In this document: positions 1 to 61,620 of the stretch, piece by piece | Position numbering within the stretch: position 1 is the stretch's first letter | Layout: each line of letters starts with the position of its first letter | DNA from: Chiloscyllium plagiosum | Lineage: Eukaryota | Assembly (NCBI RefSeq): GCF_004010195.1 | Contig: NC_057718.1 | Location: 1,619,696 to 1,681,695 of the forward strand | Direction: 5' to 3' | DNA: 62,000 nucleotides | The notes under the pieces: generated by a model | The model's database searches: none | What the model was told of the DNA's origin: nothing | What the model saw: the letters and a program-made list of their open reading frames with translations, nothing else | Translations under genes and position numbers: made by a program

Positions 1-210
1 CCTCCCCCACTCACCTATTGTACTCTATGCTACTTTCTCTCCACTCCCACCCTCCTCTCACTTATCTCTCCACCCTTCAGGCTCTCTGCCTGTATTCCTG
101 ATGAAGGGCTTTTGCCCGAAACATCGATTTCGCTGCTCCTCGGATGCTGCCTGAATTGCTGTGCTCTTCCAGCACCACCAATCCAGAATCTGCAGTCATT
201 GTTTTTACCT
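1..210 (+). mobile_element. Penelope-like element 3' terminal repeat (family 1), cut by the window edge
   Basis: Closely matches 44640-44862 and 39963-40133; hammerhead motif at 98-125 has the ACGT palindrome decayed to ACAT. Confidence 0.85.
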
Positions 211-18816: not shown

Positions 18817-19130
18817 AGATCAGAGTGGTGCTGGAAAAGCACAGCAAGTCAGGCAGCAACTGAGGAGCAACAAAATTGATGTTTCGGGCAAGAGCCCTTC
18901 ATCAGGAATAGAGGCAGGAGGCCTCCAGGGTGGAGAGATAAATGGGGGGGAGTGGGCTGGGGAGAAGGTAGCAAAGAGTACAATAGGTGAATGGGGGTGG
19001 GGATGGAGGTGATAGGTCAGAGAGGAGGGTGGAGTGGATAGGTGGGAAGGATGATAGGCAGGTAGGACAGATCATGAGGGCAGTGCTGAGTTGGAAGGTT
19101 GGAACTGGGGTGAGGTGGGGGAAGGGGAAA
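18817..19130 (-). mobile_element. Penelope family 1-like 3' terminal repeat with hammerhead motif
   Basis: Reverse complement of the same terminus as 26880-27197; motif ctgatgaagggctcttgcccgaaacatc. Confidence 0.85.
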
Positions 19131-19131
19131 G

Positions 19132-21368
19132 CTTTACTCTCATCCACCTGTTTTGTCTCCTTTTCAAAAAACTCAGTAAGGTTAGTGATTCACAACCTTC
19201 ACAAAACTGTCTTGACTCTTCCAAATCAAATTATTCCTTTCCAGATTATTATAAATCCTATTTCTTATAACCTTTTCCAACACTTTACCCACAAACAAAG
19301 TAAGGCTCACTGGCCTATAATTACCAGTGTCGTCCCGACTCCCCTTCTTAAACAAGGGAACCACATTTGCTATCCTCCAGTCTTCTGGCACCATTTCTGT
19401 AGACAATGATGACATAAAGATCACGGCAAAGGCTTGGCAATCTCCTCCCTGGTTTCCCAGAGAATCTGAGGATAAATCCCAACCAGCCCCGGGGTCTTGT
19501 CAATTTTCAGATCTTCCAAAATTGGTAAAACCTCCTCTTTTTCAACCACAATCCCATCTATTCTAGTAGCCTGTATCTCCATATTCTCACTAACATTGCC
19601 CTTTCCAATGTGAATACTGACGAAAAGTATTCATTAAGCCCTTCCCCTTTGTCCTCAGATTCCATACACAACTTCTCACTACAATCTTTGATTGGCCCTA
19701 GTTTTACTCTAGTCATTCTTTTATTCCTGATATATCTACAGAAGGCCTTAGGATTTTCCTTGATCCTATCTGCCAACAACTTCTCTTCTTAGCCCTCTCT
19801 TTAGATCTTTTCTGGCTGACGTATAACTCTCAAGCCCCCTAACTGAGCCTTCAAGCCTCACCCTCACATAAGCTGCCTTCTTCCTCTTGACAAGAGCTTC
19901 AACTTCTTTAGTAAACCATGGCTCCCTCTCTCGACAATTTCCTCCCTGCCTGAAGGGTATATACTTATCAAGGACCCGCAGTAGCTGTTCCTTGAATAAG
20001 TTCCTCATTTCAAGTGTGTCCATCCTCTGCAGTTTCTTGCCCCATCCTATGCATCCTAAATTTTGCCAAATTGCATCATAATTGCCTTTCCCCCAGTTAT
20101 ACCTCTTTCCCTGCGGTATATACCTATCCCTGCCAATTGCTATTGTAAACATAACTGAATTGTGGTCACTATCACCAAAGTGCTCACCTACCTCCAAATC
20201 TAGATTAGATTAGATAGATTAGATTACTTACAGTGTGGAAACAGGCCCTTCGGCCCAACAAGTCCACACCGACCCGCCGAAGCGCAACCCACCTATTCCC
20301 CTACATTTTACCCCTTGACCTAACACTACGGGCAATTTAGCATGGCCAATTCACCTGACCTGCACATCTTTGGACTGTGGGAGGAAACCGGAGCACCCGG
20401 AGGAAACCCACGCAGACACGGGGAGAATGTGCAAACTCCACACAGTTAGTCGCCTGAGTCGGGAAATGAACCCGGGTCTCTGGTGCTGTGAGGCAGCAGT
20501 GCTAACCACTGTGCCACCGTGCCGCCCGCCCATCTAATACCTGGCCGGGTTCATTCCCCAGCACCAAATCCAATATGGCATTGCCCCTTGTTGGCCTGTC
20601 TACATACCTTGTCAGAAAACCCTCCTGCACACATTGAACAAAAACTGACCCATTTAAACTATTGAATTATAGCGCTCCAAGGCAGTACTGGGGAAGTTAA
20701 AGTCCCCCATAACAACTACCCTGTTACTCTCACTCCCATTGAGAATCATCTTTGCTAACCTTTCCTCTACGTCCCTGGAACAATTCGGAGGCTGATAGAA
20801 AACTCCCAACAGGGTGACCTCTCCTTTTCTGTTTCTAACCTCAGCCAAAATACCTCAGTGGATGAGTCCTCAAACGTTATCTCAGCTGCTGTAATACTAC
20901 CGTTGATTAACAATGCCACACCCCTCCCCCCTTTTACCATCTTCTCTGTTCTTACTGAAACATCTGAATCCCGGAACCTGCAAAAAACCATTCCTGTCCC
21001 TCCTCTAGCGATGCATCTAAAAATGGCCACAACATCGAAATCCCACGTAGCAACCCATGCTGCAGGTTCACCTAACTTATTCAGGATGCTCCCGGTATTG
21101 AAGTACACACATTTCAAACCAATATCCTGATTGCCAGTGCCCTCTTGCGACCTTGTAAACCCCTATCCCTGACCTCACTACCCTCAACCGCCTGTACACT
21201 GGAGCTACAATTCAGGTTCCCATCCCCCTGCTGCATTAGTTTAAAGCCTCCTGAAGGGCATTAGCAAATTCCCCCCCCAGGATATTGGTACCCCTCTGGT
21301 TGGAGAGGTCCCACCTTCCTTAGAAAGAGCTCCAATTATCTGAGAATCCAAATCCCTCCCTCCTGCAC
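19132..21368 (-). mobile_element. CR1 LINE (endonuclease to RT start)
   Basis: APE-like MKCVYFN..SI.NK, KGGRGVALLI, MGDFNFP, GDSDHNSV; RT-upstream WRIANVVPLFKKG..NYRPVSLT. Confidence 0.9.
20203..20531 (-). mobile_element. Young full-length HE1 V-SINE inserted in CR1
   Basis: Close to 48884-49203; (aatct)n tail; short TSD atcta. Confidence 0.92.
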
Positions 21369-25109: not shown

Positions 25110-25979
25110 TGTTATGACACAACGGCAAACAGTTCTGTTAATTAAACAAAACACACAGAAAAGTTCACTTTGCCTTGTAGTCTGTTAAAGTATGAGTGAC
25201 AGAGGACTATCAAATTCCACTATTTAACAAAAATATCAATTTTATTCTTTAACGCTAAAAGTGAACATTAAACAACAACCCTTAAAGGGTTGTTATCTAC
25301 CTCCCACTCTATAACAATATACTGATCCAGTAAAGCCCTTACTAAATTTACAGCAAATCAGTTTTCAAAACCAGAGAGTGGTTGTGTTCTCTAGTGTTTG
25401 TCTTCCTCTATTTGTGGATCTCCCTGGGTCATCTTCAGTCTTCTGCTGCAAAGATATTTCATGTGAAAAGGATACCTTTGACAGAGAATGTTGTGAATGG
25501 CAGTCTTTCAATGGCAGGTGTTGCTGTTTCTCTGGCTAACTGCCCAAAATGCCTATATTTTCCTACCCCAAACATTGGATTGTCTTATTAGTTCAAAGTT
25601 GTCAAAACAGTAAAATTCAAATTCAATTGGGTTTTTTGTATCTTGGAGAAAGTGAGGACTGCAGATGCTGGAGATCAGAGCTGAAAATGTGTTGCTGGAA
25701 AATGTGTTGCAGCAGGTCAGGCAGCATCCAAGGAGCAGGAGAATCGACGTTTCGGGCATGAGCCTTTCTTCAGGAATCTTGGGCACGTATGTTGGGCATA
25801 ATTTAAACTGATTGGTTAAATTTGAACTGCTGTGAATACAACTGAGGTATCTAGGTTACGACCAAATGTTACATCTTTCAATTTTCCAGTACAGGGTACA
25901 TTCTGAAATTGCGAGTCAGTCACGTGAAAGGTGCCTGCAAGTTTTAAAGGTTACAATACATGCCTTCAACTTCATAACA
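25110..25979 (-). repeat. LTR of the Gypsy element
   Basis: Ends are inverted repeats TGTTATGA...TCATAACA; immediately adjacent to the PBS. Confidence 0.82.
25645..25777 (-). mobile_element. Short Penelope family 2 terminal insertion in the Gypsy LTR; hammerhead motif at 25746-25773
   Basis: Flanked by atcttgg repeats; the minus strand reads ctgaagaaaggctcatgcccgaaacgtc. Confidence 0.85.
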
Positions 25980-26145: not shown

Positions 26146-27197
26146 CACACCAGATGGCCTCCTTCTTTAGAGACCGCAATTTCCCTTCCCACGTGGTTAA
26201 AGATGCCCTCCAACACATCTCGTCCACATCCCGCACCTCCGCCCTCAGACCCCACCCCTCCAACCATAACAAGGACAGAACGCCCCTGGTGCTCACCTTC
26301 CACCCTACCAACGTTCGCATAAACCAAATCATCCGCCGACATTTCTGTCACCTCCAAAAAGACCCCACCACCAGGGATATATTTCCCTCCCCACCCCTTT
26401 CCGCCTTCTGCAAAGACCATTCCCTCCGTGACTACCTGGTCAGGTTCACGCCGCCCTACGACGCACCCTCCCATCCTGGCACATTCTCCTGCCACCGCAG
26501 GAATTGCAAAACCTGCGCCCACACCTCCTCCCTCACCTCTATCCAAGGCCCTAAAGGAGCTTTCCACATCCATCAAAGTTTTACCTGCACATCCACTAAT
26601 ATCATTTATTGTATCCGTTGCTCCCGATGCGGTCTCCTCTACATTGGGGAGACTGGATGCCTCCTAGCAGAGCGCTTTAGGGAACATCTCCGGGACACCC
26701 GCACCAATCAACCACACCGCCCTATGGCCCAACATTTCAACTCCCCCTCCCACTCTGCCGAGGCCATGGAGGTCCTGGGCCTCCTTCACCGCCACTCCCT
26801 CACCACCAGACGCCTGGAGGAAGAATGCCTCATCTTCCGCCTCGGAACTCTTCAACCCCAGGGCATCAATGTGGACTTCAACAGTTTCCTCATTTCCCCT
26901 TCCCCCACCTCACCTTAATTCCAAACTTCCAGCTCAGCACTGTCCCCGTGACTTGTTCGGAATTGTCCTACCTGCCTATATCCTTTTTCACCTATCCACT
27001 CCACCCTCTCCTCCCTGACCTATCACCTTCATCCCCTCCGCCACTCACCCATTGTANNNNNNNNNNATTCCTGATGAAGGGCTTTTGCCCGAAACGTCGA
27101 TTTTACTGCTCCTCGGATGCTGCCTGAACTGCTGTGCTCTTCCAGCACCACTAATCCAGAATCTGGTTTCCAGCATCTGCAGTCATTGTTTTTATCT
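26146..27197 (+). mobile_element. 5'-truncated Penelope-like (Neptune-type) element: Cys linker, GIY-YIG endonuclease and terminus
   Basis: ORF 26133..26918 with C..RNCKTC, NIIYCIRCSRCGLLYIGETG, RFREH, HFN and GINVD. Confidence 0.93.
27071..27098 (+). ncRNA. Minimal type I hammerhead ribozyme motif (intact core)
   Basis: CUGAUGA-A-GGGC(UUUU)GCCC-GAAAC-GUC, with an ACGU palindrome in place of helix III. Confidence 0.8.
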
Positions 27198-28629: not shown

Positions 28630-29130
28630 CGGACCAACCAACCCAACCACCCCGTGGCTCAACACTTCAACTCCCCCTCCCACTCCACCAAGGACATGCA
28701 GGTCCTTGGACTCCTCCATCACCAGACCATAGCAACACGACGGTTGGAGGAAGAGCGCCTCATCTTCCGCCTAGGAACCCTCCAACCACAAGGGATGAAC
28801 TCAGACTTCTCCAGTTTCCTCATTTACCCTCCCCCCACCTTGTCTCCGTCAAATCTCTCGAACTCAGCACCGCCTTCCTAACCTGCAATCTTCTTCCTGA
28901 CCTCTCCGCCCCCACCCCACTCTGACCTATCACCCTCACCTTGACCTCTTTCCACCTATCGCATTTCCGACGCCCCTCCCCCAAGTCCCTCCTCCCTACC
29001 TTTTATTTTAGCCTGCTGGACACACTTTCCTCATTCCTGAAGAAGGGCTCATGCCTGAAACGTCGATTCTCCTGCTCCTTGGATGCTGCCTGACCTGCTG
29101 CGCTTTTTCAGCAACACATTTTCAGCTCTG
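28630..29130 (+). mobile_element. Penelope family 2 3' fragment (end of GIY-YIG and terminus; hammerhead at 29037-29064)
   Basis: VAQHFNSPSH...LEEERLIFRLGTLQPQGMN; ctgaagaagggctcatgcctgaaacgtc. Confidence 0.9.
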
Positions 29131-32769: not shown

Positions 32770-35700
32770 TGAGCCTGTATCTCAGTATTCTCCTTGACAA
32801 CATTGTCTTTTTCCAGTGTGAATACTAATGAAAAATATTCATTTAGTGCTTCCCCTATCTCCTCTGACTCCACACACAACCTCCCAGTACTATCCTTGAT
32901 TGGCCCTAATCTTACTCCAGTCAATCTTTTATTCCTACTATATCATAGAAAGCTTCAGGGTTTTCCTTGATCCTATCCGCCAGTGACTTCTCATGCCCCC
33001 TCCTGGCCTTTTTTCGCTCTCTCTTTAGACCTTTCCTGGCTAACTTGTAACTCTCAAGCGCCTGAACTGAGCCTTCACATCTCACCCTAACATAAGCCTT
33101 CTTCTTCCTCTTGACAAAAGATTCAACTTCCTTAGTAAACCACGGCTCCCTCGCTCGACCACTTCCTCCCTGTCTGATAGGTACATACTTATCAAGCACA
33201 TGCAGTAGCTGTTCCTTGAATAAGCTCCACATTTCAATTGTGCCTATACCCTGCAGTTTCCTTCCCCATCCTATGATGTCTAATTGCATCAGAACTGCTT
33301 TCCCCCCAGCTATATCTCTTGCCCTGTGGTATGTAACTATCCCTTTCCATTAGCTAAAGTAAACATAACGAAATTGTGGTCACTATCATCAATGTGCTCA
33401 CCTACCTCCAAATCTAACACCTGGCCGGGTTCATTACCCAGTACCAAATCCAATGTGGCCTTGCCTCTTGTTGGCTTGACTACATACTGTGTCAACTAGG
33501 AGAAAGTGAGGACTGCAGATGGGGATCAGAGCTTAAAAATGTGTTGCTGGAAAAGCGCAGCAGGTCAGGCAGCATCAAAGGAGAAGGAGAATCGACGTTT
33601 CTGGCATAATCCCTTCTTCAGGAATGAGGAGGGTGTACCAAGCAGGCTAAGATAAAAGGTAGGGAGGAGGGACTTGAGGGAGGGGCTTTGGGAATGCGAT
33701 AGTGGAAGGAGGTTAAGGTGAGGGTGATAGGCCGGAGAGGGGGTGGGGGCGGAGAGATCAGGAAGAAGATTGCAGGTCAAGGAGGCGGTGCTGAATCTGA
33801 GGGTTGGGACTGAGACAAGGTGGGGGGAGGGGAAATGAGGAAGCTGGAGAAATCTGCATTCATCCCTTGTGGTTGGAGGGTTCATAGGCGGAAGATGAGT
33901 CGCTCTTCCTCCAGGTGTCATGTTGCCATGGTCTGGCGATGGAGGAGGCCAAGGACCTGCATGTCCTTGGCAGAGTGGGAGGGGGAGTTAAAGTGTTCAG
34001 CCACGGGGCGGTTGGGTTGGTTGGTGCGGGTGTCCCAGAGGTGTTCTCTGAAATGTTCCGCAAGTAGGCGGCCTGTCTCCCCAATGTATAGGAGGCCACA
34101 TCGGGTGCAGTGGATGTAGTAAATGATGTGTGTGGAGGTGCAGGTGAATTTCTGATGGATATTGAAAAATCCCTTGGGGCCTTGGAGGGAAGTGAACGGG
34201 GAGGTGTGGGCGCAAGTTTTGCATTTTTTGCGGTTGCCAGGGAAGGTGCCGGGAGTGGAGGTTGGGCTGGTGGGGGGTGTGGATCTGACAAGGGAGTCGC
34301 AGAGAGAGTGGTCTTTTTGGAATGCTGATAGGGGTGGGGAGGGAAATATATCCTTGGTGGTGGGGTCCGTTTGGAGGTGGCGGAAATGACGAAGGATGAT
34401 CCGATGTATCTGGAGGTTGGTGGGGTGGTAGGTGAGGACTAGTGGGGTTCTGTCTTGGTGGCGATTGGAGGGGCGGAGTTCAAGGGCGGAGGCAGCATCC
34501 TGTACACATTGGACAAAAGCTGACCCATCTAAAGTACTCAAACTATGGTCTTTCCAGTAAATATTTGGAAAGTTAAAGTCTTGCATAACAACTACCCTGT
34601 TAAATTCGCTCCTACATAGAATCATCTATGCTATCCTTTCCTCTACATCTCTGGAACGATTTGGAGGCCTATTGAAAACTCCCAACAGGGTGACCTCTCC
34701 TTTCCTGTTTCTAACCTCAACCCATACTACCTCAATAGATGAGTCCTCAAACATCCTTTCTGCCACCATAATATTGTCTTTGACTAACAATGCCACACCT
34801 CCCCCTCTTTTACCATCTTCCCTGTTCTTACTGAAACATCTAAACCCCGGAACCCCCAACAACCATTCCTGTCCCTGCTCTATCCATGTCTCTGAAATGG
34901 CCACAAAATCAAAGTCCTAGGTACCAACCCCTGCTGCAAGTTCACCCACCTTATTCAGGATGCTCCTTTGTTGAAGTAGATACACTTCAAACCACCTGCC
35001 TGCTTGCCAGTGCACTCTTGCGACGTTGAAGCCATATTTCTGATCTCAATACTCTCAACCTCCTGTACACTTGAACTACAATTCAGGTTCCAATCCCCCT
35101 GCTGAGTTAGTTTAAACTCTCCTGAAAGGCATTAGCAAACTTCTCCCCCAGGATATTGGTACCCCTCTGGTTCAGGTGAAGACTATACTGTTTGTAGAGG
35201 TCCCACCTACCCCAGAATGAGCCCCAATTATCCAGGTATCAGAACCCCTCCCTCCTGTAGCCACATGTTCAACTCCTCTCTCTCCCTAATTCTCGCCTTG
35301 CACTGTGGCACTGGCAACAAACCAGAGATAACAACTTCCACCCTAGCTCCCTGAATTCCTGCCTGAAACCCCTATCTCTCTTCCTACCTATGTCATTGGT
35401 GCCTATGTGGACCACGACTTGGGGCTGCTCCCTGTTCCCCTCAAGGATCCCAAAAACATGATCTGAGACATCACGAACCCTGGCACCTGGGGGGCAACAC
35501 ATCAACCGTGAGTCTCTCTTGTTCACACAGAGCCTCCGATTTGTTTCCATACATATGGAATCCCCAATGACTAAAGCTCTGCTCATCTTCCCCCTTTCCT
35601 TCAGAGCAACAGGGACAGACTCTATGCTAGTGACCAGTCCCCATGGCTTACCCCTGGTAAGCTGTCCCCCCCAGCAGTATCCAGAACAGTATCTTGTTAT

Positions 35701-37461: not shown

Positions 37462-40133
37462 GAACCCCACTGTCACTATCCCCACCCCCCAGAACACCGA
37501 GGGGAACACTACCCCTGCTCATGACTCCACCCCCATTCCCCCCACCATCACACCCACTCCAGTTACAGGCCCCGCCCCCACTCCCAGCTCTACACCCACA
37601 TCGGATCCCAGCTCCCAGCCCTGCCGAGTTTTCACTATACCCCCAGACCTCTCCCTCACTGAGGACGAACGATCAGTCCTCAGCAAAGGACTCACCTTCA
37701 TCCCCCTCCGTCCACGCATCAATGAATTTAATATACACCGTGACATCGAACACTTCTTCCATCGCCTCCGCCTCCGAGCTTACTTTCACAATCAGGATTC
37801 CCACCCACCTTCCGAGGACCCCTTTGCCCACCTCCAACACACTGCATCCACCTGGACACCCTGCGCTGGCCTATTACCTGCCCTCGACCTCTTCATTTCC
37901 AACTGCCGCCGGGACATTAATCGCCTCAACCTGTCTACCCCCCTCCCCCACTCTAATCTCTCACCCTCACAACACGCAGCCCTCCAATCCCTCTGCTCCA
38001 ATCCCAACCTCACCATCAAGCCAGCGGATAAAGGGGATGCAGTGGTAATCTGGCGCACTGACCTCTACACCGCTGAAGCCAAACGTCAACTCGAGGACAC
38101 CTCTTCCTACTGCCCCCTTGACCATGACCCCACCCCCCATCACCAAACCATCATCTCCCAGACCATACAGAACCTCATCACTTCAGGAGATCTCCCACCC
38201 ACAGCTTCCAACCTCATAATCCAGGAACCCCGCACTGCCCGGTTCTACCTCCTTCCCAAGATCCACAAGCCTGACCACCCTGGCCGACCCATTGACTCAG
38301 CATACTCCTGCCCCACTGAACTCATCTCTACCTACCTCGACACTGTCCTATCCCCCCTAGTCCAGGAACTCCCAACATACGTTCGAGACACCACCCACGT
38401 CCTCCACCTCCTCCAAGACTTCCGTTTCCCCGGCCCCCAACGCCTCATCTTCACCATGGATATCCAATCCCTCTACACTTCCATCCGCCATGACCAGGGC
38501 CTACAAGCCTTCCGTTTTTTCCTCTCCAGACGTCCCCAGCAGTACCCTTCCACGGACACTCTCATTCGTTTAGCCGAACTGGTCCTCACCCTTAACAATT
38601 TCTCCTTTGAATCCTCTCACTTCCTCCAGGCCAAAGGGGTAGCCATCAGCACACGTATGGGCCCCAGCTATGCCTGTCTCTTTGTTGGCTACATAGAGCA
38701 GTTGATCTTCTGTAATTACACCGGCACCACTCCCCACCTCTTCCTCCGCTACATTGATGACTGCATCGGTGCCACCTCGTGCTCCCGCGAGGAGATTGAG
38801 CAATTCATCAACTTCACCAACACATTCCACACTGACCTTAAATTTACCTGGACCATCTCTGACACCTTCCTCCCCCTCCTGGACCTCTCCATCTCCATTA
38901 ATGACGACCGACTTGACACTGACATTTTTTACAAACCCATCGACTCCCACAGCTACCTGGATTACACCTCTTCCCACCCTACCTCTTGCAAAAATGCCAT
39001 CCCGTATTCCCAATTCCTCCGCCTCCGCTGTATCTGCTCCCAGGAGAACTAGTTCCACCACAGAACGCACCAGATGGCCTCCTTCTTTAGAGACCGCAAT
39101 TTCCCTTCCCACGTGGTTAAAGATGCCCTCCAACGCATCTCGTCTACATCCAGCACCTCCACCCTCAGACCCCACCCCTCCAACCGTAACAAGGACAGAA
39201 CGCCCCTGGTGCTCACCTTCCACCCTACCAACCTTCGCATAAACCAAATCATCCGCCGACATTTCTGCCACCTNNNNNNNNNNNNNNNNNNNNNNNNNNN
39301 NNNNNNNNNNNNNNNNNNNNNNNNNNNNNNNNNNNNNNNNNNNNNNNNNNNNNNNNNNNNNNNNNNNNNNNNNNNNNNNNNNNNNNNNNNNNNNNNNNNN
39401 NNNNNNNNNNNNNNNNNNNNNNNNNNNNNNNNNNNNNNNNNNNNNNNNNNNNNNNNNNNNNNNNNNNNNNNNNNNNNNNNNNNNNNNNNNNNNNNNNNNN
39501 NNNNNNNNNNNNNNNNNNNNNNNNNNNNNNNNNNNNNNNNNNNNNNNNNNNNNNNNNNNNNNNNNNNNNNNNNNNNNNNNNNNNNNNNNNNNNNNNNNNN
39601 NNNNNNNNNNNNNNNNNNNNNNNNNNNNNNNNNNNNNNNNNNNNNNNNNNNNNNNNNNNNNNNNNNNNNNNNNNNNNNNNNNNNNNNNNNNNNNNNNNNN
39701 NNNNNNNNNNNNNNNNNNNNNNNNNNNNNNNNNNNNNNNNNNNNNNNNNNNNNNNNNNNNNNNNNNNNNNNNNNNNNNNNNNNNNNNNNNNNNNNNNNNN
39801 NNNNNNNNNNNNNNNNNNNNNNNNNNNNNNNNNNNNNNNNNNNNNNNNNNNNNNNNNNNNNNNNNNNNNNNNNNNNNNNNNNNNNNNNNNNNNNNNNNNN
39901 NNNNNNNNNNNNNNNNNNNNNNNNNNNNNNNNNNNNNNNNNNNNNNNNNNNNNNNNNNNNNNTTGTACTCTATGCTACTCTCTCCCCACCCCCACCCTCC
40001 TCTAGCTTATCTCTCCACGCTTCAGGCTCACTGTCTTTATTCCTGATGAAGGGCTTTTGCCCGAAACGTCGATTTTGCTGCTCCTCGGATGCTGCCTGAA
40101 CTGCTGTGCTCTTCCAGCACCACTGATCCAGAA
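37462..40133 (+). mobile_element. Near full-length Penelope-like (Neptune-type) retroelement; RT with one premature stop; GIY-YIG part inferred to lie in the gap
   Basis: VLSKGLTF, IKPADKG, FYLLPKIHK, GRPI, MDIQSLYTSI, GPSYACLF and RYIDD; TAG at 39050-39052; terminus after gap 39274-39962. Confidence 0.95.
40043..40070 (+). ncRNA. Minimal hammerhead ribozyme motif (intact core)
   Basis: CUGAUGA-A-GGGC(UUUU)GCCC-GAAAC-GUC. Confidence 0.8.
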
Positions 40134-44045: not shown

Positions 44046-44866
44046 GTGTTAGTGGTGCTGGAAGAGCACATCAGTTCAGGCAGCATCCGACGAGCAGCAA
44101 AATCGACGTTTCGGGCAAAAGCCCTTCATCAGGAATAAAGGCAGTGAGCCTGAAGCGTGGAGAGATAAGCTCGAGGAGGGTGGGGGTGGGGAGAGAGTAG
44201 CATAGAGTACAATGGGTGAGTGGGGGAGGGGATGAAGGTGATAGGTCAGGGAGGAGAGGGTGGAGTGGATAGGTGGAAAAGGAGCTGGGCAGGTAGGACA
44301 GGTCCGGACAAGTCATGGGGACAGTGCTGAGCTGGAAGTTTAGAACTAGGGTGAGGTGGGGGAAGGGGAAATGAGGAAACTGTTGAAGTCCACATTGATG
44401 CCCTGGGGTTGAAGTGTTCCGACGTGGAAGATGAGGCGTTCTTCCTCCAGGCATCTGGTAGTGAGGGAGAGGCAGTGAAGGAGGCCCAAGTTTCCTTATT
44501 TCCCCTTGCCCCACATCACCCTAATTCCAAACTTCCAGCTCAGCACTGTCCCCATGACTTGTCCGGACTTGTCCTACCTGCCTAGCTCCTTTTCCACCTA
44601 TCCACTCCACCTTCTCCTCCCTGACCTATCACCTTCATCCCCTCCCCCACCCACCCATTGTACTCTATGCTACTTTCTCCGCACCCCCACCCTCCTCTAG
44701 CTTATCTCTCCACCCTTCAGGCTCTCTGCCTTTATTCCTGATGAAGGGCTTTTGCCCGAAACGTCGATTTCGCTGCTCCTTGGATGCTGCCTGAACTGCT
44801 GTGCTCTTCCAGCACCACTAATCCAGATTCTGGTTTCCAGCATCTGCAGTCATTGTTTTTACCACC
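44046..44866. mobile_element. Head-to-head inverted pair of Penelope family 1 termini (arms of about 330 bp) with 10-bp TSD
   Basis: Minus copy ~44049-44488 and plus copy ~44490-44862; TSD ggattgtttt at 44036-44045 and 44867-44876; hammerheads at 44105-44132 (-) and 44738-44765 (+). Confidence 0.9.
44738..44765 (+). ncRNA. Minimal hammerhead ribozyme motif (intact core)
   Basis: CUGAUGA-A-GGGC(UUUU)GCCC-GAAAC-GUC. Confidence 0.8.
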
Positions 44867-45343: not shown

Positions 45344-47609
45344 GTACGGCACCCATTGGTTTCTACAATTCTGACCCTTCATTTGTTTCCTCTGACTGAG
45401 GAAAGTTGATTGAAGGGTCACACTACATTATTGGGAACAGTGACAGAAGGTGTGATAGTGTGTTTGCTATGTTTCAAAGAGAACTGAAATGAAATAACAA
45501 CAAAAGTGTGTATTTATATAGCCCCTTCAATGTAATGAAATACTTCAAGGTACTTCACATGAGCATTTTGAAACAAAGTAAGTATAATTTGATAAACATT
45601 ACAAACACAAGACTGCAAGATGGCATAGACTGGGACCTGAATATTGGAGGGTACATGGCATTTTGGCAGGAGAACTTAGGAAAAGATAGGGGTGGGGGAT
45701 GGCAGGGGCCTCTGTTAATGAATTATGATATTAACACCACAAAGAGGGTTGTTGCAAACTCAGGAATCAAAGCTGAGGAGTGGTTTAGGTAGAGATTAGA
45801 AATCTTAAAGGCAAAAAGTAATTTAAGGGAATACAAGTAAAATACTATGGATACTAAAAATCTAAAATAAAACATGAAATGCTGGAGACACTCAGCATGT
45901 TTGGCGAGAGAAACAGAGTTAATATTTCAAATCTCATATAACTCCTTAAAAGTTAACAATTCATAGCATGTTTTCAGGTTTTTGTTTAGATCAGTGTTTT
46001 CTGGAGCTATCCAGAGAGCAAGCTATACACAACAATATGGTCTTGTGCAATAGGGTAAGATTAAGGACCTCAAAGTGAAGGCGCCGCTAGGTAGCAGCGA
46101 CCATGTTATGATTGAATTTTATATTCAATTTGACAGAATGCAGAATGAGGCCAAGTTTTTAATAGGAGTAAGGTAAATTTGAATGGTATGAGACAAGAAC
46201 TTTCAAAAATTAATTGGAGTAGACTGTTTGGAGGTAAATGACATCTGATAAGCAGTGGGCTTTCAAGAGTGCGATAATGAAAGTTCAGAGTCTTTGTGTC
46301 CCTGTTAGAATAAAAGGTAAAAGTGGTAGAATTAAAGAACAATTGATGAATAAAGATACTGTGGTTCTAGTCAAGAATAAAAAGAATCATATATTAGATA
46401 TAACCAACTGGGTTCAAATGAACGTCTTGAACATTACAAAGTGTGTAGGGCCATTCTTTAAGAGGGAGATCAGGAAGTCAAACAGAGGATATGAGGTAGC
46501 CTTGGCAAATAAGGCAAAGCATAATCCAAAGAGATTGTACAAATACATTAAGAGTAAGGGAACAGCTAGACAGATCATAAGATCCCTTAAAGATCAAGGA
46601 GGTCATCTTTGTGTTGAACCTCAGGAGATAGGAGAGATCCTAAATGAATATTTTGCATCAGTTTTTACTGTGGAGAAAGAGGTGGAAGCGAGAGAACTCA
46701 GGGAAATAAATATTAATGCTTTGAAAACAGTTCACATTACAGAATGATTGATCGATTGTAATGTGTACTGAGATAAAATGAAAAGTTTGTTAACAAGCAG
46801 TGAAAGCAGATCATAGTAAGCAAGGATATACAGGTCAAAAAGATTTAGACAGAGGCATATAGATTACACTGCACAGGGTGTGCACTAGGCGAGACCAGCG
46901 TTAGCAAGATCAGCTTTATTTGAGGCTTGAGGATGAAGTGCTAGAGGTGTTAGGAAATATAAAAGTGGATAAATCTCTGGGACCTAATCTATTTTATCAA
47001 AGGACTTTGTGGGACATTAGGTCGGAAATTTCAGGGTCCCTTGCAAGAATATTTGTATCATCTGTAAATACAGGTGAGGTGCCAAATGACTGGAAAGTGG
47101 CTAATGTTGTGTCTATGTTTAAGCAGGGATGTAAGAGAACTATCGACCGGGGATCTGACTTCATTGGTGGATAAATTGTTGGAGGTGATTCTGAAAAATA
47201 GGATTTATATGTATTTGGAGAGGGAAGGAATGATCAGGGATGATCAGCATGGTTTTGTGTGAGAGAAATCATGTCTCACAAATTTGATTGAGTTTTTTGA
47301 GGAAGTAACCAAGACGATTGATGAAGGCAGAATAGGATACATTGTTTATTTGGAGTTTAGTAAAGCCTTTGACAAGATTCCACATGGTAGACTAATTAGT
47401 TAAGTTAAATCACATGGGATTCAGGGTGAGCTTGCCAATTAGATACAAAATCAGCTTAACAGCAGGAGACAGAGTGATGGTGCAGGGTTGTTTCTTGCTC
47501 TGGAGGCCTGTGACCAGCATATTCCACACAGTCCACTTTTGTTTCCAAAAGAGAAAATGCTGGAAAATCTCAGCAGGTCTGGCAGCATCTGTAAGGAGAG
47601 AAAAGAGCT

Positions 47610-47640
47610 GACGTTTCGAGTCTAACTGACACTTTGTCAA
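47610..47640 (-). ncRNA. Hammerhead variant with U3-A8 core (family 3); second copy at 49208-49238 (+)
   Basis: AGCU-UUGACAA-A-G(G/U)GUC(AGUUA)GACUC-GAAAC-GUC-AGCU. Confidence 0.68.
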
Positions 47641-48883
47641 AGCTCAAGAAAGACTATTGTCGGAAATAGAGACAGAAAGGTCAAGGAAAGGAAGGCAAGT
47701 GCCGGAGATGGACCAGGTGAAGGTGATGGAGGGATGGAAACGGGAAGGGAAGTTTATGAATTTTTCCAGGTCAGGACGAGAGCATGAAACCGCACCAAAA
47801 TAGTCATCGATGTATCGATAAAGCAGTTGTGGGAGGGGACCCGGGTAGGCCTGGAACAAGAAATGTTCCACATACCCTATGAAAAGGCAGGCATAGCTAG
47901 GACCCATGTGGGTATCCATTGCTACACCTTTGATTTGGAGAAAATGGGATGAGTTGAAGGAGAAGTTGTTGAGAGAGAGAACAAGTTCAGTCAGGCGGAG
48001 GAGAGTGCTGGTGGATGGAGATTGTTCGGGCCTCTTTTTGAAAAAGAAGCGAAGAGCTTTCAAGCTTGGTGTGGGATGGAGGTGTAAAGAGATTGCACAT
48101 TCATGGTGAATAGAAGGTGGTTAGGGCCTGCAAATTGAAAGCAGTCAATGTGTCGCAGGGCATCAGAGGAATCCTGGATGTAGGTGGGGAGGGAGTGAAC
48201 CAGAGGAGCAAGGATGGAGTCAAGGTAGGAGGAAATAAGTTCGGTGGGGCAGGAGCACAATGACACAATGGGCCTGCCGGTACAGTCCTTCTTATGGATT
48301 TTGGGGAGTAGGTAGAAACGGGCTGTCTGGGGTTGGGAGACTATGAGGTTGGAAGCTGTGGGGGGGGAGGCATCTGCAGGAAATGAGGTCAGTCACAGTG
48401 TTGGAGACAATGGCTTGATGCTCGGTGGTGTGGTCATGCTCCAGGGGGAGTGAGGAGGAGGAATCTGAGAGTTGGCGCTCAGCCTCTGCGAGGTAGAGGT
48501 CAGTACGCCAAACGACAACAGCACCCCCTTTGTCAGCAGGTTTGATGACAAGGTTGGGGTTGGACCTAAAGGAGCGAAGGGCAGAAAGTTCGGATGGAGA
48601 GAGGTTGGATGGGTAAGAGGGGCAGAGAAATTAAGGCGGCCAATGTCCCGTCGACAATTGTCAATGAAAAGATCGAGGGCAGGAAATTGTCCTGGCGGGG
48701 GTGTCTAATTAGAGGTGGAATGTTGGAGGGATGTGAAAGGATCTGTGGAGTGGGGGGAGGACTCTTGCCCAAAGAAGTGAGCACGAAGGCGACGGCGACA
48801 GAAGAGCTCAGCATCATGTCGAGCCCGGAATTCACTGAGGTGGGGACGTAAGGGTACAAAGCTGAGTCCTTTGCTGAGAACAT

Positions 48884-49203
48884 GGGCGGCACGGTGGCAC
48901 AGTGGTTAGCACTGCTGCCTCGCAGCGCCAGAGACCCGGGTTCAATTCCCGCCTCAGGCGACTGACTGTGTGGAGTTTGCACGTTCTCCCCGTGTCTGCG
49001 TGGGTTTCCTCCGGGTGCTCCGGTTTCCTCCGACAGTCCAAAGATGTGCAAGTCAGGTGAATTGGCCATGCTAAATTGCCCGTAGTGTTAGGTAAAGGGG
49101 TAAATGTAGGGGTATGGGTGGGTTACGCTTCGGCGGGTCGGTGTGGACTTGTTGGGCTGAAGGGCCTGTTTCCACACTGTAAGTAATCTAATCTAAACTA
49201 AAC
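48884..49203 (+). mobile_element. Young full-length HE1 V-SINE
   Basis: A box tggcacagtgg, B box ggttcaattcc, V-domain, CR1-like tail and (aatct)n. Confidence 0.93.
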
Positions 49204-50049
49204 AGCTTTGACAAAGGGTCAGTTAGACTCGAAATGTCAGCTCTTTTCTCTCCTTACAGATGCTGCCAGACCTGCTGAGATTTTCCAGCATTTTCTCTTC
49301 TGGTTTCAGATTCCAGCATCCGCAGTAATTTGCTTTTATTTTAGCTTTTGTCCAATTTTGTTTGTCATTTATAGAAATGAATAAGATGAGAATGTAGAAG
49401 GTATTGTTAATAAGTTGGTGGATGACACCAAAATTGATGGTACAGTGAACAAAGAGATTCAAAGGGATCATTGAAATCCCTCACTGTCGAGATTTAGGAG
49501 TTCAGTTAGATAATTCTTTGAAGTTTGTATCACATACAGGCAGGGTGGTTAAGAAGGTATTTCGCACGCTTGTCTTCATTGCTCAGACCTTTGAATGTGG
49601 AAATTGGGATGTCATGTTGAGGTTGTTACAGGCGATGGTGAGGCCTCTTCTGGAATACAGTGTCCAGTTCTTGCCACCCTGTTATCAGAAGGATATTATT
49701 AAGCTGGAGGGGCTTCAGATTGATTTACCCGGGTGTTGCTGGGAAAGGAGGTTTGAGTTATAAGGAGAGGCCAGATAGGTTCTGACTATTTTCACTGGAG
49801 CGTAGGAGACTCAACGGTGACTGTATAGAGGTTTATAAAATCATGAAGGGTATACATAAGGTGAATGGCAGGTGTCCTTTTCCTAGAGTAGGGATTTCAT
49901 GGTAGGATAGAACATAAAGTATGGAAAATATGATTAAAAGATGAACAAGGAAAACTAGAGTTTGAGAGAAGTTTAATTGGAGCTCTAAAAACCAACATTG
50001 AAAATTATTTTAGATTTTCTTAAAATTTAAAAAAAGGATTAATTAATTA

Positions 50050-59644: not shown

Positions 59645-61470
59645 CACAGGTAACTATAGGCTGGTTAGCCTAACACTGGTCATTGGTAAGATTTGAGATT
59701 GTATTATTAAGGATAAGTTTGCGGAGTACTCAGAAATGCAGGGTAAAATAGGATGGAGTCAGGATGGCTTCACCAAGGGGAAGTCATGCCTGACAAATCT
59801 GTTCGAATTCTTTGAGGAGGTAACAAACAAGTTTGACAAAGGAGAACCAGTAGACATGATCTACTTGGATTTCCAGCAGGCCTTTGACAAAATGTTGCAC
59901 AGGAGGCTGCTAAATAAGAGAAAAGGCCCGTTGTGTTATGGGTAAGGTACTGGCATGGACAGAGGATTGGTTGACTGGCAGAAGGCAGAGAGTGAGAATG
60001 AAAAGTCTTTTTCAGGATAACAGCTGGTGACTGTTGGAGTTCTCTAGGTCAGTGAAGGGACCACAACTATTCACGTTATACATTAACGATCTAGACAAAG
60101 GAACTGAGAGCATTGCTGCTGAGTTTACAGATGACACAAAGATAGATGGAGGGACACAGGTAGTGTTGAGGAGGCAGGAAGGCTGCAGAAGGACTCAGAT
60201 AGGCTAGGAGAGTTGGAAAAGAAGTGGCAAATGGAATGCAATGCGGGAAAGTATGAGGTTATGCACTTTAGTCAGAAGAATGAGACATAGACAATATTCT
60301 AAATGGTGAAAGACTTTGGAAATCTGAAGCACAAAATTACTTGGGAGTAATAGCTCAGAATTCTGTTAAGGTTAACATGCAGATTCAGTTGGTAGTTGGG
60401 ATTCATTTCAAGAAGACGAGAGTACAAATGCGGAGATGTACAGCTGAGGCTGTGTAAGGCTCTGGCTGGGCCTCATTTGGAATATTGTGAGCTGTTTTGG
60501 GCCCCTTACCTAAGGAAGGATGCGTTGGTGTTGAAGGGGATCTGGAGGACATTTACAGTAATGGTCCTGCAAGGTGAAGGGCTCGTCATATGAGGAGTGG
60601 TTGAGAAACTCTGGTCTGAGCTCAGTGATGTTTAGAGGGATGAGGAGGGATCTGTTTGAAACTTATAGAATGCTGAGAGACCTGGATAGAGTGGATATGG
60701 AAAAGATATAGGAGAGATTGGGACCTGAGGGAACATCTTTGAGGAGAAAGTGAGGACTGCAGATGCTGGAGATCAGAGCTGAAAATGTGTTGCTGGAAAA
60801 GCGCAGTAGGTCAGGCAGCATCCTGAAGAAGGGCTCATGCCTGAAACGTTGATTCTCCTGCTCCTTGGATGCTCCCTGACCTGCTGAGCTTTTCCAGCAA
60901 CACATTTTCAGACCTGAGGGAATAGCCTCAGAGTGAAGGGATGACCCTCTAGAACTGAGATGAGTAGCACTGCTGTCTCACAGTGCCATGGACTCTGGTT
61001 CAATTCCAGCCTCAGGTGACTGTCTGTGTGGCATTTGTACATTTTCCCCATGTCTGCGAGGGTTTCCTCCCACAGTCAAAGGTGTGCAGGTCAGGTGGGT
61101 TAGCCATGGGAAATATAAGATTACAGGGATAGGGAAGGAAGGGATGGGTCTGGCGGGTTGCTCTTCAAAGGATTGGTGTGGACATGATGGGCCGAATGGC
61201 CTGCTTCCACACTATAGGGATTCTATGAAATTCATGAATTTCCTCTGCCAAAGGGTGGTTCAGGTGTGGAACCCATTGCTGCAGAGGGTTGTGAAACCTA
61301 ATTGTTTGAGTGTATTTAAGACAGAGATAGATAAGGTCTTTATTAGTAATGGGATCAAAGGTTATGGGGAGAAGGCAGGAGAATGGAGATGAGCATCATA
61401 TTAACCATGATCGAGTGGCAGAGCAGATGCTAATTCAGCTCCTAAATCTTATCATGTTATGGTATTATAA
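59645..61470 (+). mobile_element. Decayed CR1 RT/3' end with nested HE1 SINE (~60965-61227)
   Basis: QDGFTKGKSCLTNL, IYLDFQQAFDK, FTDDTK and PHLEYC. Confidence 0.85.
60734..60910. mobile_element. Fold-back Penelope family 2 terminus with 12-bp TSD; hammerhead at 60823-60850 (+)
   Basis: TSD gacctgagggaa at 60722-60733 and 60911-60922; arms 60779-60823 / 60867-60911. Confidence 0.85.
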
Positions 61471-61526: not shown

Positions 61527-61620
61527 TGAAAATGTGTTGCTGGAAAAGCGCAGCAGGTCAGGCAGCATCCAGGGAACAGGAGAATCGACGTTTCGGGCAT
61601 AAGCCCTTCTTCAGGAACCA
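61527..61620 (-). mobile_element. 94-bp Penelope family 2 insertion with intact hammerhead (61587-61614)
   Basis: 15-bp TSD tacagagaacacagc at 61512-61526 and 61621-61635. Confidence 0.9.

What the first reader, a model, noticed from the sequence alone, without database searches (positions are those of the whole stretch)
47610..49238. Hammerhead variant with a compensatory U3-A8 swap in the catalytic core
Seen: both family 3 termini read AGCU-UUGACAA-A-G(G/U)GUC AGUUA GACUC-GAAA(C/U)GUC-AGCU instead of CUGANGA. Established: positions 3 and 8 form a Watson-Crick pair (C3-G8) in the active hammerhead fold. Inference: the double change C3U plus G8A preserves that pair. Together with a different helix II and a perfect 4-bp helix I (AGCU/AGCU), this suggests selection for ribozyme function in this lineage rather than decay. 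A strict CUGANGA search would miss it.
Basis: partly seen in the sequence, partly recalled or inferred. Interest (0 to 1): 0.75.

Follow-up and report, generated by a model that had tools for sequence, protein, structure and literature searches.

The report
Shark Penelope-element hammerhead, U3-A8 core variant
The two motifs are real copies of a small hammerhead self-cutting-RNA motif carried by a family of Penelope-like jumping genes whose whole family has swapped one core base pair (C-G to U-A), a compensated variant already described elsewhere, and both copies here are dead end-pieces.

Summary
Both sites read AGCU-UUGACAA-A-G(G/U)GUC-AGUUA-GACUC-GAAA(C/U)GUC-AGCU. UUGACAA is the family's majority form, not a private mutation. 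Among exact 27-mers in this 3.56-Gb genome, U3/A8 occurs 1,830 times, C3/A8 107, U3/G8 12 and C3/G8 2. Most of the C3/A8 cases are junction artefacts.

The motif is the minimal, dimer-type hammerhead of a Penelope-like retroelement (PLE). It lies 30 nt after a TATA box, at the discrete 5' end of most copies, and ahead of the two known PLE "tail" ends and the ORF.

The window's "termini" are not LTR-like ends. They are two inverted 5'-leader retrocopies of one typical complex PLE insertion.

U3-A8 covariation is already published, both for natural hammerheads (PMC3088659) and for PLE min-HHRs (PMC4209133). This scan has also noted PLE min-HHRs before in this genome, and U3-A8 variants on other DNA.

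Cleavage is untested. Retrocopy ends give no sign of it: 23 of 3,197 tails, at most 7 with a foreign flank, begin at the cut site. G8A is also a CpG-type change.

Verdict: real, a new member of a known kind, of modest interest.

The parts
47606..47644 (-). Left variant min-hammerhead. Helix I 5' AGCU 47644-47641; core UUGACAA 47640-47634 (U3 = 47640, A8 = 47635); extra A 47633; helix II GUGUC 47632-47628 with GACUC 47622-47618 (private U10.2-U11.2 mismatch); loop AGUUA 47627-47623; GAAA 47617-47614; CGUC 47613-47610; helix I 3' AGCU 47609-47606. Predicted cut between 47610 and 47609.
   Evidence: Sequence; pattern match with 0 expected; aligned with canonical motifs.
47546..47605 (-). Left arm leader and tail, ending at the short tail end (equivalent to L046 position 247).
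   Evidence: blastn: 47546-47652(-) = L046 141-247, 94.4%. Short and long ends recur in genome copies and in contigs of other runs (loose ends at 246/247 and 284).
47648..48882 (-). Internal ORF fragment of the same PLE family (N-terminal region through the RT YxDD motif), frameshifted. It is joined directly to the leader's AGCU, which I read as a template-switch chimera.
   Evidence: blastn: 93.2% over 1,243 bp to L046 919-2150. ORF pieces listed. RVT_1 at E 3.5e-6 on the L046 equivalent. No Pfam hit on the window pieces themselves.
48890..49203 (+). tRNA-derived SINE copy whose 3' end abuts the AGCU of the right arm.
   Evidence: Sequence. A second copy at window 20215-20521 is 95% identical, and further diverged copies exist. 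'tRNA-derived SINE' is my reading of the sequence; no tool tested it.
49204..49242 (+). Right variant min-hammerhead. Helix I 5' AGCU 49204-49207; core UUGACAA 49208-49214 (U3 = 49208, A8 = 49213); extra A 49215; helix II GGGUC 49216-49220 with GACUC 49226-49230; loop AGUUA 49221-49225; GAAA 49231-49234; UGUC 49235-49238 (15.2 C>U, a CpG decay); helix I 3' AGCU 49239-49242. Predicted cut between 49238 and 49239.
49243..49339 (+). Right arm leader and tail, ending at the long tail end (equivalent to L046 position 284). It carries the 37-nt 'tail' extension that the left arm lacks.
   Evidence: blastn: 49204-49339(+) = L046 149-284, 95.6%. A tail present at only one end of a PLE insertion unit is described in PMC8557442.

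Best explanation
The motif is the minimal type-I hammerhead (min-HHR) of one family of canonical, endonuclease-bearing Penelope-like retroelements in a shark-type genome.

(a) Identity, about 0.95. The whole family, at least 5,621 copies, carries U3-A8 in place of C3-G8. It also has the other published marks of PLE min-HHRs: an extra base after A9, a G10.1-C11.1 closing pair, no helix III of its own, and a palindromic A-C-G-U around the cut site. Two motifs must therefore pair through ACGU to build helix III before cutting after GUC.

(b) Context, about 0.85. In source elements the motif occupies the first 39 nt of the probable transcript, 30 nt after a TATAAATA box. The two reverse-transcription start sites (short and long tail) and the ORF follow it. 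The two window copies are dead retrocopies of this leader. They were laid down head-to-head in one complex insertion, each extended by a template switch: one into ORF-internal RNA, the other onto a SINE.

(c) Activity, about 0.5, inferred. Because U3-A8 keeps the Watson-Crick pair of the active core, source elements probably keep the same weak, dimer- or protein-dependent self-cleavage as canonical PLE hammerheads. The likely history is a CpG-type G8A change (C7-G8) followed or accompanied by C3U in the master lineage.
For: Family-level core.
- Exact 27-mer counts are U3/A8 1,830, C3/A8 107, U3/G8 12 and C3/G8 2.
- 86 of the first 100 listed AGCT-N7-helix II matches read TTGACAA, out of 1,518 in all.
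- The 35-mer with up to 3 mismatches gives 5,621 matches against 0 for the reversed control.
- Of 20 fetched C3/A8 copies (20 of 107), only 4 have a proper AGCT before the C, or 5 counting one ambiguous case. The rest take the C from a junction or a foreign flank, so there is no unpaired intermediate subfamily.

Published min-HHR marks (PMC4209133 passages) are met in the alignment.

Cross-family pair-keeping changes.
- Four pairs change on both sides between families: two in helix I, the 3-8 pair, and one in helix II.
- 91.8% of cells are paired, against 21-38% when partners are slid.
- The rows are copies of about 3 families and were chosen by me.

The other 12 conserved positions are unchanged while the tail is 62-68% identical.

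PLE identity.
- RVT_1 scores E 3.5e-6 and 1.6e-5, below Pfam's cut-off.
- The closest proteins are elasmobranch.
- Homologue P0014 has RVT_1 plus GIY-YIG at E 4.4e-4, below the cut-off.
- A fragment about 410-640 nt upstream of a pLTR-borne motif aligns to P0014 residues 682-756 at E 2e-13.
- Inverted arms and a tail at one end match PMC8557442. Two RT start sites match PMC11167929.

Leader anatomy.
- In L046, TATAAATA is at 119, AGCT at 149, the cut site at 183|184, the tail ends at 247 and 284, and the first ATG at 320.
- Copies beginning at AGCT: 626 have no T in the three upstream bases, against 326 with the pLTR's TTT.
- There are 177 perfect palindromic junctions.
- Contigs from three other organism labels show loose ends at 149, 246/247 and 284. 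None of the 40 rows listed (44 more were not shown) is at positions 153 or 158.

U3-A8 variants are reported as natural and active in vitro (PMC3088659 passage).
Against: - No cleavage was measured. The one raw RNA run laid 0 reads, which is no test.
- Rfam's hammerhead models hit nothing in the window, but they also miss the 10 canonical motifs.
- Retrocopy 5' ends do not mark the cut site. Only 23 of 3,197 exact tails have non-G, non-T, non-C before AGCU(1.1-1.4), and 16 of those 23 are CAA|AGCT fold-back junctions. Template RNAs were therefore almost always uncut.
- G8A sits in a CpG, which is mutationally favoured. The family's other CpGs are heavily decayed: only 38 of the first 100 listed copies keep GAAACGTC, and 19 have A12.
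- U3-A8 occurs in one lineage only. 94 of the first 100 listed U3-A8 descriptor hits are this family. The covariation is therefore one event, picked out after the fact.
- The thermodynamic fold pairs GAC(5-7) with GUC(16.2-17), an inactive conformer, in the variant motifs and in one of the two canonical ones folded.
- Published PLE min-HHRs cut poorly in vitro (PMC4209133). Hammerhead mutants did not affect insertion by an Anolis PLE in vitro (PMC11167929). PLE clades without hammerheads proliferate well (PMC8557442).
Confidence: 0.6

Rival explanations
1. Inactive relic. The hammerhead of this family lost cleavage when CpG decay changed G8 to A. C3U is a neutral transition that happens to restore pairing, and the motif simply rides along in the leader of a family that amplified without it.
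For: - G8 follows C7, forming a CpG; other CpGs of the motif are about half decayed.
- Only 23 of 3,197 tails could start at the cut site.
- Hammerhead function is dispensable for insertion in vitro (PMC11167929), and hammerhead-less PLE clades thrive (PMC8557442).
- This is a single lineage event.
Against: - The other 12 conserved positions are all kept while the tail is 62-68% identical.
- Helices I and II changed only by pair-keeping substitutions.
- No C3-A8 or U3-G8 subfamily exists.
- The two changed positions are exactly the pairing partners.
Confidence: 0.25
2. The stretch is kept for a role other than cutting. It would serve as the first 39 nt of the transcript (start-site context, binding of the element's protein) or as a strand-transfer device. 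In that device the AGCU palindrome and the UGAC/GUCA complement let cDNA ends anneal or snap back, producing the inverted pLTR arrangement.
For: - Copies start at AGCU, 30 nt after a TATA box.
- There are 177 perfect palindromes sharing one AGCT.
- 16 junctions join AGCT to position 1.1.
- Junctions also use TGAC/GTCA.
- Chimeras join ORF-internal sequence to AGCU.
Against: - Microhomology use can be a by-product of any 4-nt palindrome at an RNA end.
- Canonical families of the same genome keep at least 60 nt of shared sequence upstream of their motif, so a 5'-terminal position is not general.
- A non-catalytic role does not explain why all catalytic bases are kept.
Confidence: 0.1
3. Terminal inverted repeats of a DNA transposon or fold-back element that merely resemble a hammerhead.
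For: A 100-nt, 97% inverted repeat flanks 1.56 kb.
Against: - The arms are the leader and tail of a retroelement with RT.
- Thousands of solo arms exist, and the arms have discrete RT-start ends.
- The inner part is RT-coding sequence plus a SINE, not a transposase.
Confidence: 0.02
4. A non-LTR retrozyme: tandem hammerhead repeats that yield small circular RNAs.
For: One locus (L023) has two direct leader copies 528 bp apart. Animal retrozymes are proposed to derive from PLE pLTRs (bioRxiv 10.64898/2026.07.22.740005; abstract and four search-hit passages seen, none on this point).
Against: The window copies are inverted, not tandem. No circular RNA evidence was available. Most copies are solo or head-to-head.
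Confidence: 0.03

Closest known systems
Minimal hammerheads (min-HHR) of metazoan Penelope-like elements, including the U3-A8 variant of Schistosoma mansoni Cercyon elements (Cervera & de la Pena 2014, PMC4209133; passages read)
   Same: - Type-I motif without its own helix III.
- Extra base after A9.
- G10.1-C11.1 closing pair.
- Palindromic 15.2-16.2.
- Location in the pLTR.
- Thousands of mostly solo or opposite-strand copies.
- U3-A8 in place of C3-G8.
   Different: - Host is a cartilaginous-fish-type genome.
- Helix II is 5 bp with a G-U pair and a 5-nt loop.
- Helix I is a perfect AGCU palindrome.
- N7 is C, so the ancestral C7-G8 was a CpG.
- The motif sits at the discrete 5' end of most copies.

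I saw no vertebrate U3-A8 example in the passages read; that paper's supplementary figures could not be searched.
Natural U3-A8 hammerheads of phages and bacteria (Perreault et al. 2011, PMC3088659; passage read)
   Same: The same compensated core pair. It is stated there to be active in vitro and to occur in nature.
   Different: Those are complete three-helix ribozymes with tertiary contacts, not dimer-dependent minimal motifs in a retroelement.
Poseidon element PAc of Anolis carolinensis (Frangieh et al. 2024, PMC11167929; passages read)
   Same: - Hammerhead at the pLTR-ORF junction.
- Two adjacent internal RT start sites that define the 'tail'.
- Both DNA strands are cut and extended.
- No read ends at the hammerhead cut site.
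   Different: In PAc the ORF starts inside the motif and the RT start sites lie within the ORF. Here the motif and both tail ends precede the first ATG (L046 320). PAc has the C3-G8 core.
Animal non-LTR retrozymes (Cervera & de la Pena 2020, PMC7229834, passages; Li et al. 2026 preprint, abstract and four search-hit passages)
   Same: Type-I hammerheads related to PLE pLTRs.
   Different: Retrozymes are tandem direct repeats that give circular RNAs. The copies here are inverted or solo leader retrocopies.

Membership tests
PLE minimal hammerhead (min-HHR, Cervera & de la Pena 2014) | Catalytic boxes (C/U)UGAN(G/A)A ... GAAA and an NUH cut site, with positions 3 and 8 able to pair | tested here: met
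   UUGACAA ... GAAA(C/U)GUC at both sites. U3-A8 is the family majority, 1,830 of 1,951.
PLE minimal hammerhead (min-HHR, Cervera & de la Pena 2014) | One extra nucleotide between A9 and 10.1, and a G10.1-C11.1 closing pair | tested here: met
   An A at alignment column 16 in all 20 rows. Columns 17-31 read G-C in 14 of 17 distinct rows.
PLE minimal hammerhead (min-HHR, Cervera & de la Pena 2014) | No own helix III; palindromic 15.1-16.1 (ACGU) allowing a dimer | tested here: met
   GAAACGUC in the left copy and in 38 of the first 100 listed genome copies. The rest are mostly CpG-decay forms (TG 18, CA 14). The right copy has AUGU, which allows wobble pairs only.
PLE minimal hammerhead (min-HHR, Cervera & de la Pena 2014) | Location in the pseudo-LTR of a Penelope-like element | tested here: met
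   L046 runs TATA - motif - tails - ORF with RVT_1. In L032 a GIY-YIG-type C-terminus lies about 410-640 nt upstream of the motif.
PLE minimal hammerhead (min-HHR, Cervera & de la Pena 2014) | Self-cleavage (as dimer or with extended helix III) | not testable with these tools
   No usable RNA reads. Retrocopy ends give no support.
Hammerhead ribozyme as modelled in Rfam (type I/II/III covariance models) | Match to a curated covariance model | tested here: not met
   No hammerhead match at the gathering score or at E<=10. The 10 canonical min-HHRs of the window are missed too, so the models do not cover helix-III-less motifs.
Canonical EN+ Penelope-like element | Reverse transcriptase domain | tested here: met
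   RVT_1 at E 3.5e-6 (27.3 bits) and 1.6e-5 (25.1 bits), both under Pfam's 29.6-bit cut-off. Homologues P0002 and P0021 score above it. The window's own ORF pieces gave no Pfam hit.
Canonical EN+ Penelope-like element | C-terminal GIY-YIG endonuclease | tested here: inconclusive
   No GIY-YIG hit on decayed L032 pieces at E<=1. Homologue P0014 has GIY-YIG at E 4.4e-4, 20.9 bits against a cut-off of 22.6. The L032 piece aligns to P0014 682-756 at E 2e-13. The RT-coding parts of several fetched copies read N.
Canonical EN+ Penelope-like element | Insertion architecture: 5'-truncated and inverted adjacent copies, with a 30-40-bp tail at one end | tested here: met
   Inverted arms. Short tail end on the left and a long end 37 nt further on the right. 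The same ends appear genome-wide and in other runs. Described in PMC8557442.
Non-LTR retrozyme | Tandem direct hammerhead repeats giving unit-length circular RNA | tested here: not met
   The window copies are inverted. Circular RNA could not be tested.

The most novel reading that the evidence does not exclude
In this family the hammerhead occupies the very first 39 nt of the element's transcript. What selection keeps is the folded motif as a replication device rather than as a nuclease. The AGCU palindrome of helix I and the UGAC/GUCA complement would let cDNA ends anneal or snap back, and that would generate the inverted and tandem pseudo-LTRs that define Penelope-like elements. The U3-A8 swap would then record selection on the fold.
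Probability: 0.1. Interest if true: 0.6.

Novelty: new member of a known kind. Interest (0 to 1): 0.3.

Why it matters
It adds a vertebrate (cartilaginous-fish-type) Penelope-like family, with thousands of copies, to the few natural cases where the C3-G8 core pair of the hammerhead is replaced by U3-A8.

It also suggests a simple route to that state. When N7 is C, G8 lies in a CpG and is prone to become A, after which C3U restores the pair.

Practically, CUGANGA-based descriptors and Rfam models miss this family entirely.

The family has clean, discrete ends: the 5' AGCU, two tail ends, and many microhomology junctions. That makes it a convenient natural record of how PLE reverse transcription starts, ends and switches templates.

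None of this changes what is known about hammerheads or PLEs.

Tried and rejected
- **Rfam.** Searches at the gathering score and at E<=10 gave no hammerhead. This is uninformative, because the canonical min-HHRs are missed too.
- **RNA evidence.** No RNA holder was listed for the stretch. The raw single-cell RNA run X23 laid 0 reads, so neither expression nor read ends at the cut site were tested. Runs X2 and X4 are only guessed to be RNA.
- **C3-A8 intermediate subfamily.** Rejected. 15-16 of the 20 fetched copies (20 of 107) take their C from a junction or a foreign flank.
- **Other U3-A8 families in the genome.** None seen. 94 of the first 100 listed descriptor hits are this family, and the other 6 look like chance or decayed canonical motifs.
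- **Copies starting at the cut site.** 23 of 3,197. I ran no shifted-position control for background truncation.
- **Thermodynamic folding of monomer and dimer.** Helices I and II form, but the core pairs with the cut-site triplet. The dimer output was not interpretable as printed, so I drew no conclusion from it.
- **Target-site duplication of the composite insertion.** Only an 8-nt TTTTGTTT is shared, 1 nt from the left arm and 16 nt from the right. Unresolved.
- **Full-length copy.** Long 'open frames' were runs of N. I did not pursue intact copies.
- **Pfam.** Nothing on the window ORF pieces or on the L032 pieces.
- **Supplements of PMC4209133.** Not searchable.
- **Literature.** 'penelope-like' + 'shark' + 'ribozyme' returned one review. 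'U3-A8' returned only PMC4209133.
Full report
**1. What is in the sequence**

- Minus strand, 47644-47606: AGCT TTGACAA A GTGTC AGTTA GACTC GAAA CGTC AGCT.
- Plus strand, 49204-49242: AGCT TTGACAA A GGGTC AGTTA GACTC GAAA TGTC AGCT.

A 35-nt pattern with up to 3 mismatches finds only these two sites in 62 kb, against 0.00 expected in 100 shuffles. They are the inner ends of a 100-nt, 97% inverted repeat, 47545-47644 and 49204-49303. The copies are therefore head-to-head.

A strict CTGANGA descriptor gives 13 matches in the window and misses both variant sites. Ten of the 13 are canonical motifs of the form CTGA[T/A]GA-A-GGGC-NNNN-GCCC-GAAAC[G/A]TC. Two rows are one chance site and one row is another chance site. 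Rfam finds no hammerhead at the gathering score or at E<=10, so it misses the canonical motifs as well.

The sequence after the cut site is clearly homologous between the canonical copies and the variant copies. The shared blocks are GATGCTGCC.GA.CTGCTG...TTCCAGCA...CCAGCATC.GCAGT. Identity is 62-68% over about 108 columns.

**2. Is UUGACAA the family form?**

Yes. The window lies in a 3.56-Gb assembly. The 35-mer with up to 3 mismatches occurs 5,621 times, against 0 for the reversed control.

Exact 27-mers that differ only at positions 3 and 8:

| Position 3 / 8 | Count |
|---|---|
| U3/A8 | 1,830 |
| C3/A8 | 107 |
| U3/G8 | 12 |
| C3/G8 | 2 |

I also took a sample anchored outside the heptamer (AGCT-N7-helix II, 1,518 hits). 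TTGACAA appears in 86 of the first 100 listed.

I fetched 20 of the 107 C3/A8 copies. Only 4 have AGCT followed by C, or 5 counting one ambiguous case. In the others the C belongs to the other arm of a head-to-head junction or to a foreign flank, for example ...caaag|CTGACAA or ...gagaaaagag|CTGACAA. There is therefore no unpaired intermediate subfamily. True C3 is about 1% of copies, which is ordinary for a transition.

One of the two C3/G8 copies (L032) sits behind a diverged pLTR and may be an old copy. The other is a junction case.

Contigs of runs under three other organism labels hold the unit. They show the same majority differences from my reference copy at positions 180, 212, 217, 248 and 249. 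None of the 40 listed rows is at 153 (U3) or 158 (A8); 44 further rows were not shown. I infer from this that the U3-A8 form is shared beyond this assembly.

**3. What the motif belongs to**

Locus L046 shows the 5' part of a family member:

| Feature | Position in L046 |
|---|---|
| TATAAATA | 119 |
| AGCT | 149 |
| Core | 153-159 |
| Cut site | 183\|184 |
| Short tail end | about 247 |
| Long tail end | 284 |
| First ATG of a long open frame | 320 |

- The frame has an RVT_1 match at E 3.5e-6, below Pfam's cut-off.
- The closest proteins to the window's RT fragment are from elasmobranchs.
- One homologue, P0014, has RVT_1 and GIY-YIG, at E 4.4e-4 and below the cut-off.
- A fragment 410-640 nt upstream of a pLTR-borne motif (L032) aligns to the C-terminal residues 682-756 of P0014 at E 2e-13.

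Together with the architecture described below, this is a canonical endonuclease-type Penelope-like element. The GIY-YIG domain of this family itself was not scored directly, and the RT-coding parts of several fetched copies read N.

**4. Anatomy of the copies, and of the window's pair**

Most copies begin at the AGCT.
- Among exact matches, 626 have no T in the three bases upstream, against 326 with the pLTR's TTT.
- 45 of the first 100 listed of the 626 read CAA, which means they abut an inverted copy.
- 177 sites are perfect 26-nt palindromes sharing one AGCT.
- Contigs of other runs have loose ends at 149 (before) and at 246/247 and 284 (behind). They also have joints from ORF-internal positions back to 149, and opposite-strand joints.

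I read the AGCU as the RNA's 5' end, probably the transcription start 30 nt after the TATA box. This is an inference. I read the two 3' ends as the two internal reverse-transcription start sites shown for an Anolis PLE (PMC11167929, passages). The 37-nt difference matches the 30-40-bp 'tail' found at only one end of PLE insertion units. The adjacent inverted 5'-truncated copy is also a described PLE feature (PMC8557442, passages).

The window fits this picture:

| Window interval | Strand | Equivalent |
|---|---|---|
| 49204-49339 | + | L046 149-284 (long end) |
| 47546-47652 | - | L046 141-247 (short end) |
| 47648-48882 | - | ORF-internal L046 919-2150, 93%, joined directly to the AGCU |
| 48890-49203 | + | SINE whose 3' end abuts the other AGCU |

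I interpret this as one insertion made of two cDNAs primed from both target ends, each extended by a template switch at the RNA's 5' end. A target-site duplication could not be established.

**5. Does it work as a ribozyme?**

*For:*
- All the marks that Cervera and de la Pena listed for PLE min-HHRs are present. These are the extra base after A9, the G10.1-C11.1 pair, and the palindromic 15.2-16.2.
- Relative to the canonical families, four pairs differ on both sides while staying paired: two in helix I, the 3-8 pair, and one in helix II. 91.8% of cells are paired, against 21-38% with slid partners. The rows are copies of about three families that I chose, so this illustrates family-level covariation and is not an independent test.
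- The other 12 conserved positions are identical although the neighbouring tail is about one-third diverged.
- U3-A8 hammerheads are stated to be active in vitro and to occur naturally (PMC3088659, passage).

*Against, or neutral:*
- C7-G8 is a CpG, so G8A is the expected decay. The motif's other CpGs are heavily decayed in copies. Of the first 100 listed, 38 read GAAACGTC, 18 GAAATGTC, 14 GAAACATC, 19 have A12, and 11 are other forms.
- The U3-A8 state occurs in one lineage only. That family is a small minority beside about 129,533 canonical-type matches, against a control of 1,791. Of the first 100 listed there, 96 are C3/G8.
- Of 3,197 exact tails, only 23 lack G, T and C at the three bases before the cut site. 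16 of those 23 are CAA|AGCT junctions that need no cleavage. RNAs used as templates were therefore almost never cut at this motif.
- That is what one expects of a lone, dimer-dependent motif at an RNA's 5' end. It also agrees with the published findings that hammerhead mutants do not impair insertion in vitro and that no read ends were seen at the cut site (PMC11167929).
- The RNA test failed for lack of reads.
- Both window copies are damaged privately: a U10.2-U11.2 mismatch on the left and U15.2 on the right.

**6. Comparison with what is known, and verdict**

The compensated U3-A8 core is published for natural hammerheads (2011) and specifically for PLE min-HHRs, in Schistosoma with about 1,300 hits (2014). 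In the passages I read, and in my searches, I found no report of it for a vertebrate or a shark. The 2014 paper's supplementary figures could not be searched.

Earlier notes of this scan had already described PLE min-HHRs and fold-back copies in this genome, and U3-A8 variants in other genomes. I re-derived the fold-back reading from my own counts.

The finding is real and correctly read at the sequence level. Its family-level claim holds. Its claim of selection is plausible but unproven, and its 'termini' are inverted leader retrocopies. It is a new member of a known kind.

Noticed in passing
window 98-125, 18878-18905, 25746-25773, 27071-27098, 29037-29064, 33594-33621, 40043-40070, 44105-44132, 44738-44765, 61587-61614: Ten canonical PLE min-hammerheads of two families (CUGAUGA with a UUUU-type loop, CUGAAGA with a UCAU/UUAU-type loop). 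Unlike the variant family, they share at least 60 nt of sequence upstream of the motif.
   Followed up: partly
window 60796-60895: The best sub-threshold Rfam hit (mir-2007, 28.2 bits against a gathering score of 100) is a long hairpin. Its arms look like a head-to-head pair of canonical PLE tails, so PLE fold-backs can mimic miRNA precursors.
   Followed up: no
window 48890-49203 and 20215-20521: Two copies, 95% identical, of a roughly 310-nt SINE with a tRNA-like head. More diverged copies lie at about 40766, 51887, 2159, 60965 and elsewhere. One copy abuts the AGCU of the right arm as if it had been picked up by template switching.
   Followed up: partly
L023 (G000:C1:37546782-37549816), motifs at 972 and 1500, both +: Two direct leader copies lie 528 bp apart: leader, ORF 5' part, then leader again. 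A read-through transcript would carry two hammerheads in tandem, the layout from which retrozyme-like units could arise.
   Followed up: no
L050, L055, L054 and others; 16 sites: Head-to-head junctions use microhomologies that mirror RNA pairings of the motif. One is AGCT at the 5' end against AGCT at 1.1-1.4. The other is TGAC (positions 4-7) against GTCA (16.2-1.1). This suggests snap-back or annealing of cDNA ends.
   Followed up: partly
window about 27053-27062; L045, L046, L048, L037, L039, L042, L005, L019: There are runs of N: a 10-N gap just upstream of the canonical motif at 27071, and longer N runs over RT-coding parts of fetched retroelement copies. The latter produced spurious 'open frames' of up to 2,210 aa.
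   Followed up: yes
whole genome: At least 129,533 matches to a min-hammerhead descriptor with an intact GAAACGTC, against 1,791 for the reversed control. That is roughly one per 27 kb, which makes this genome very rich in PLE hammerhead relics.
   Followed up: no
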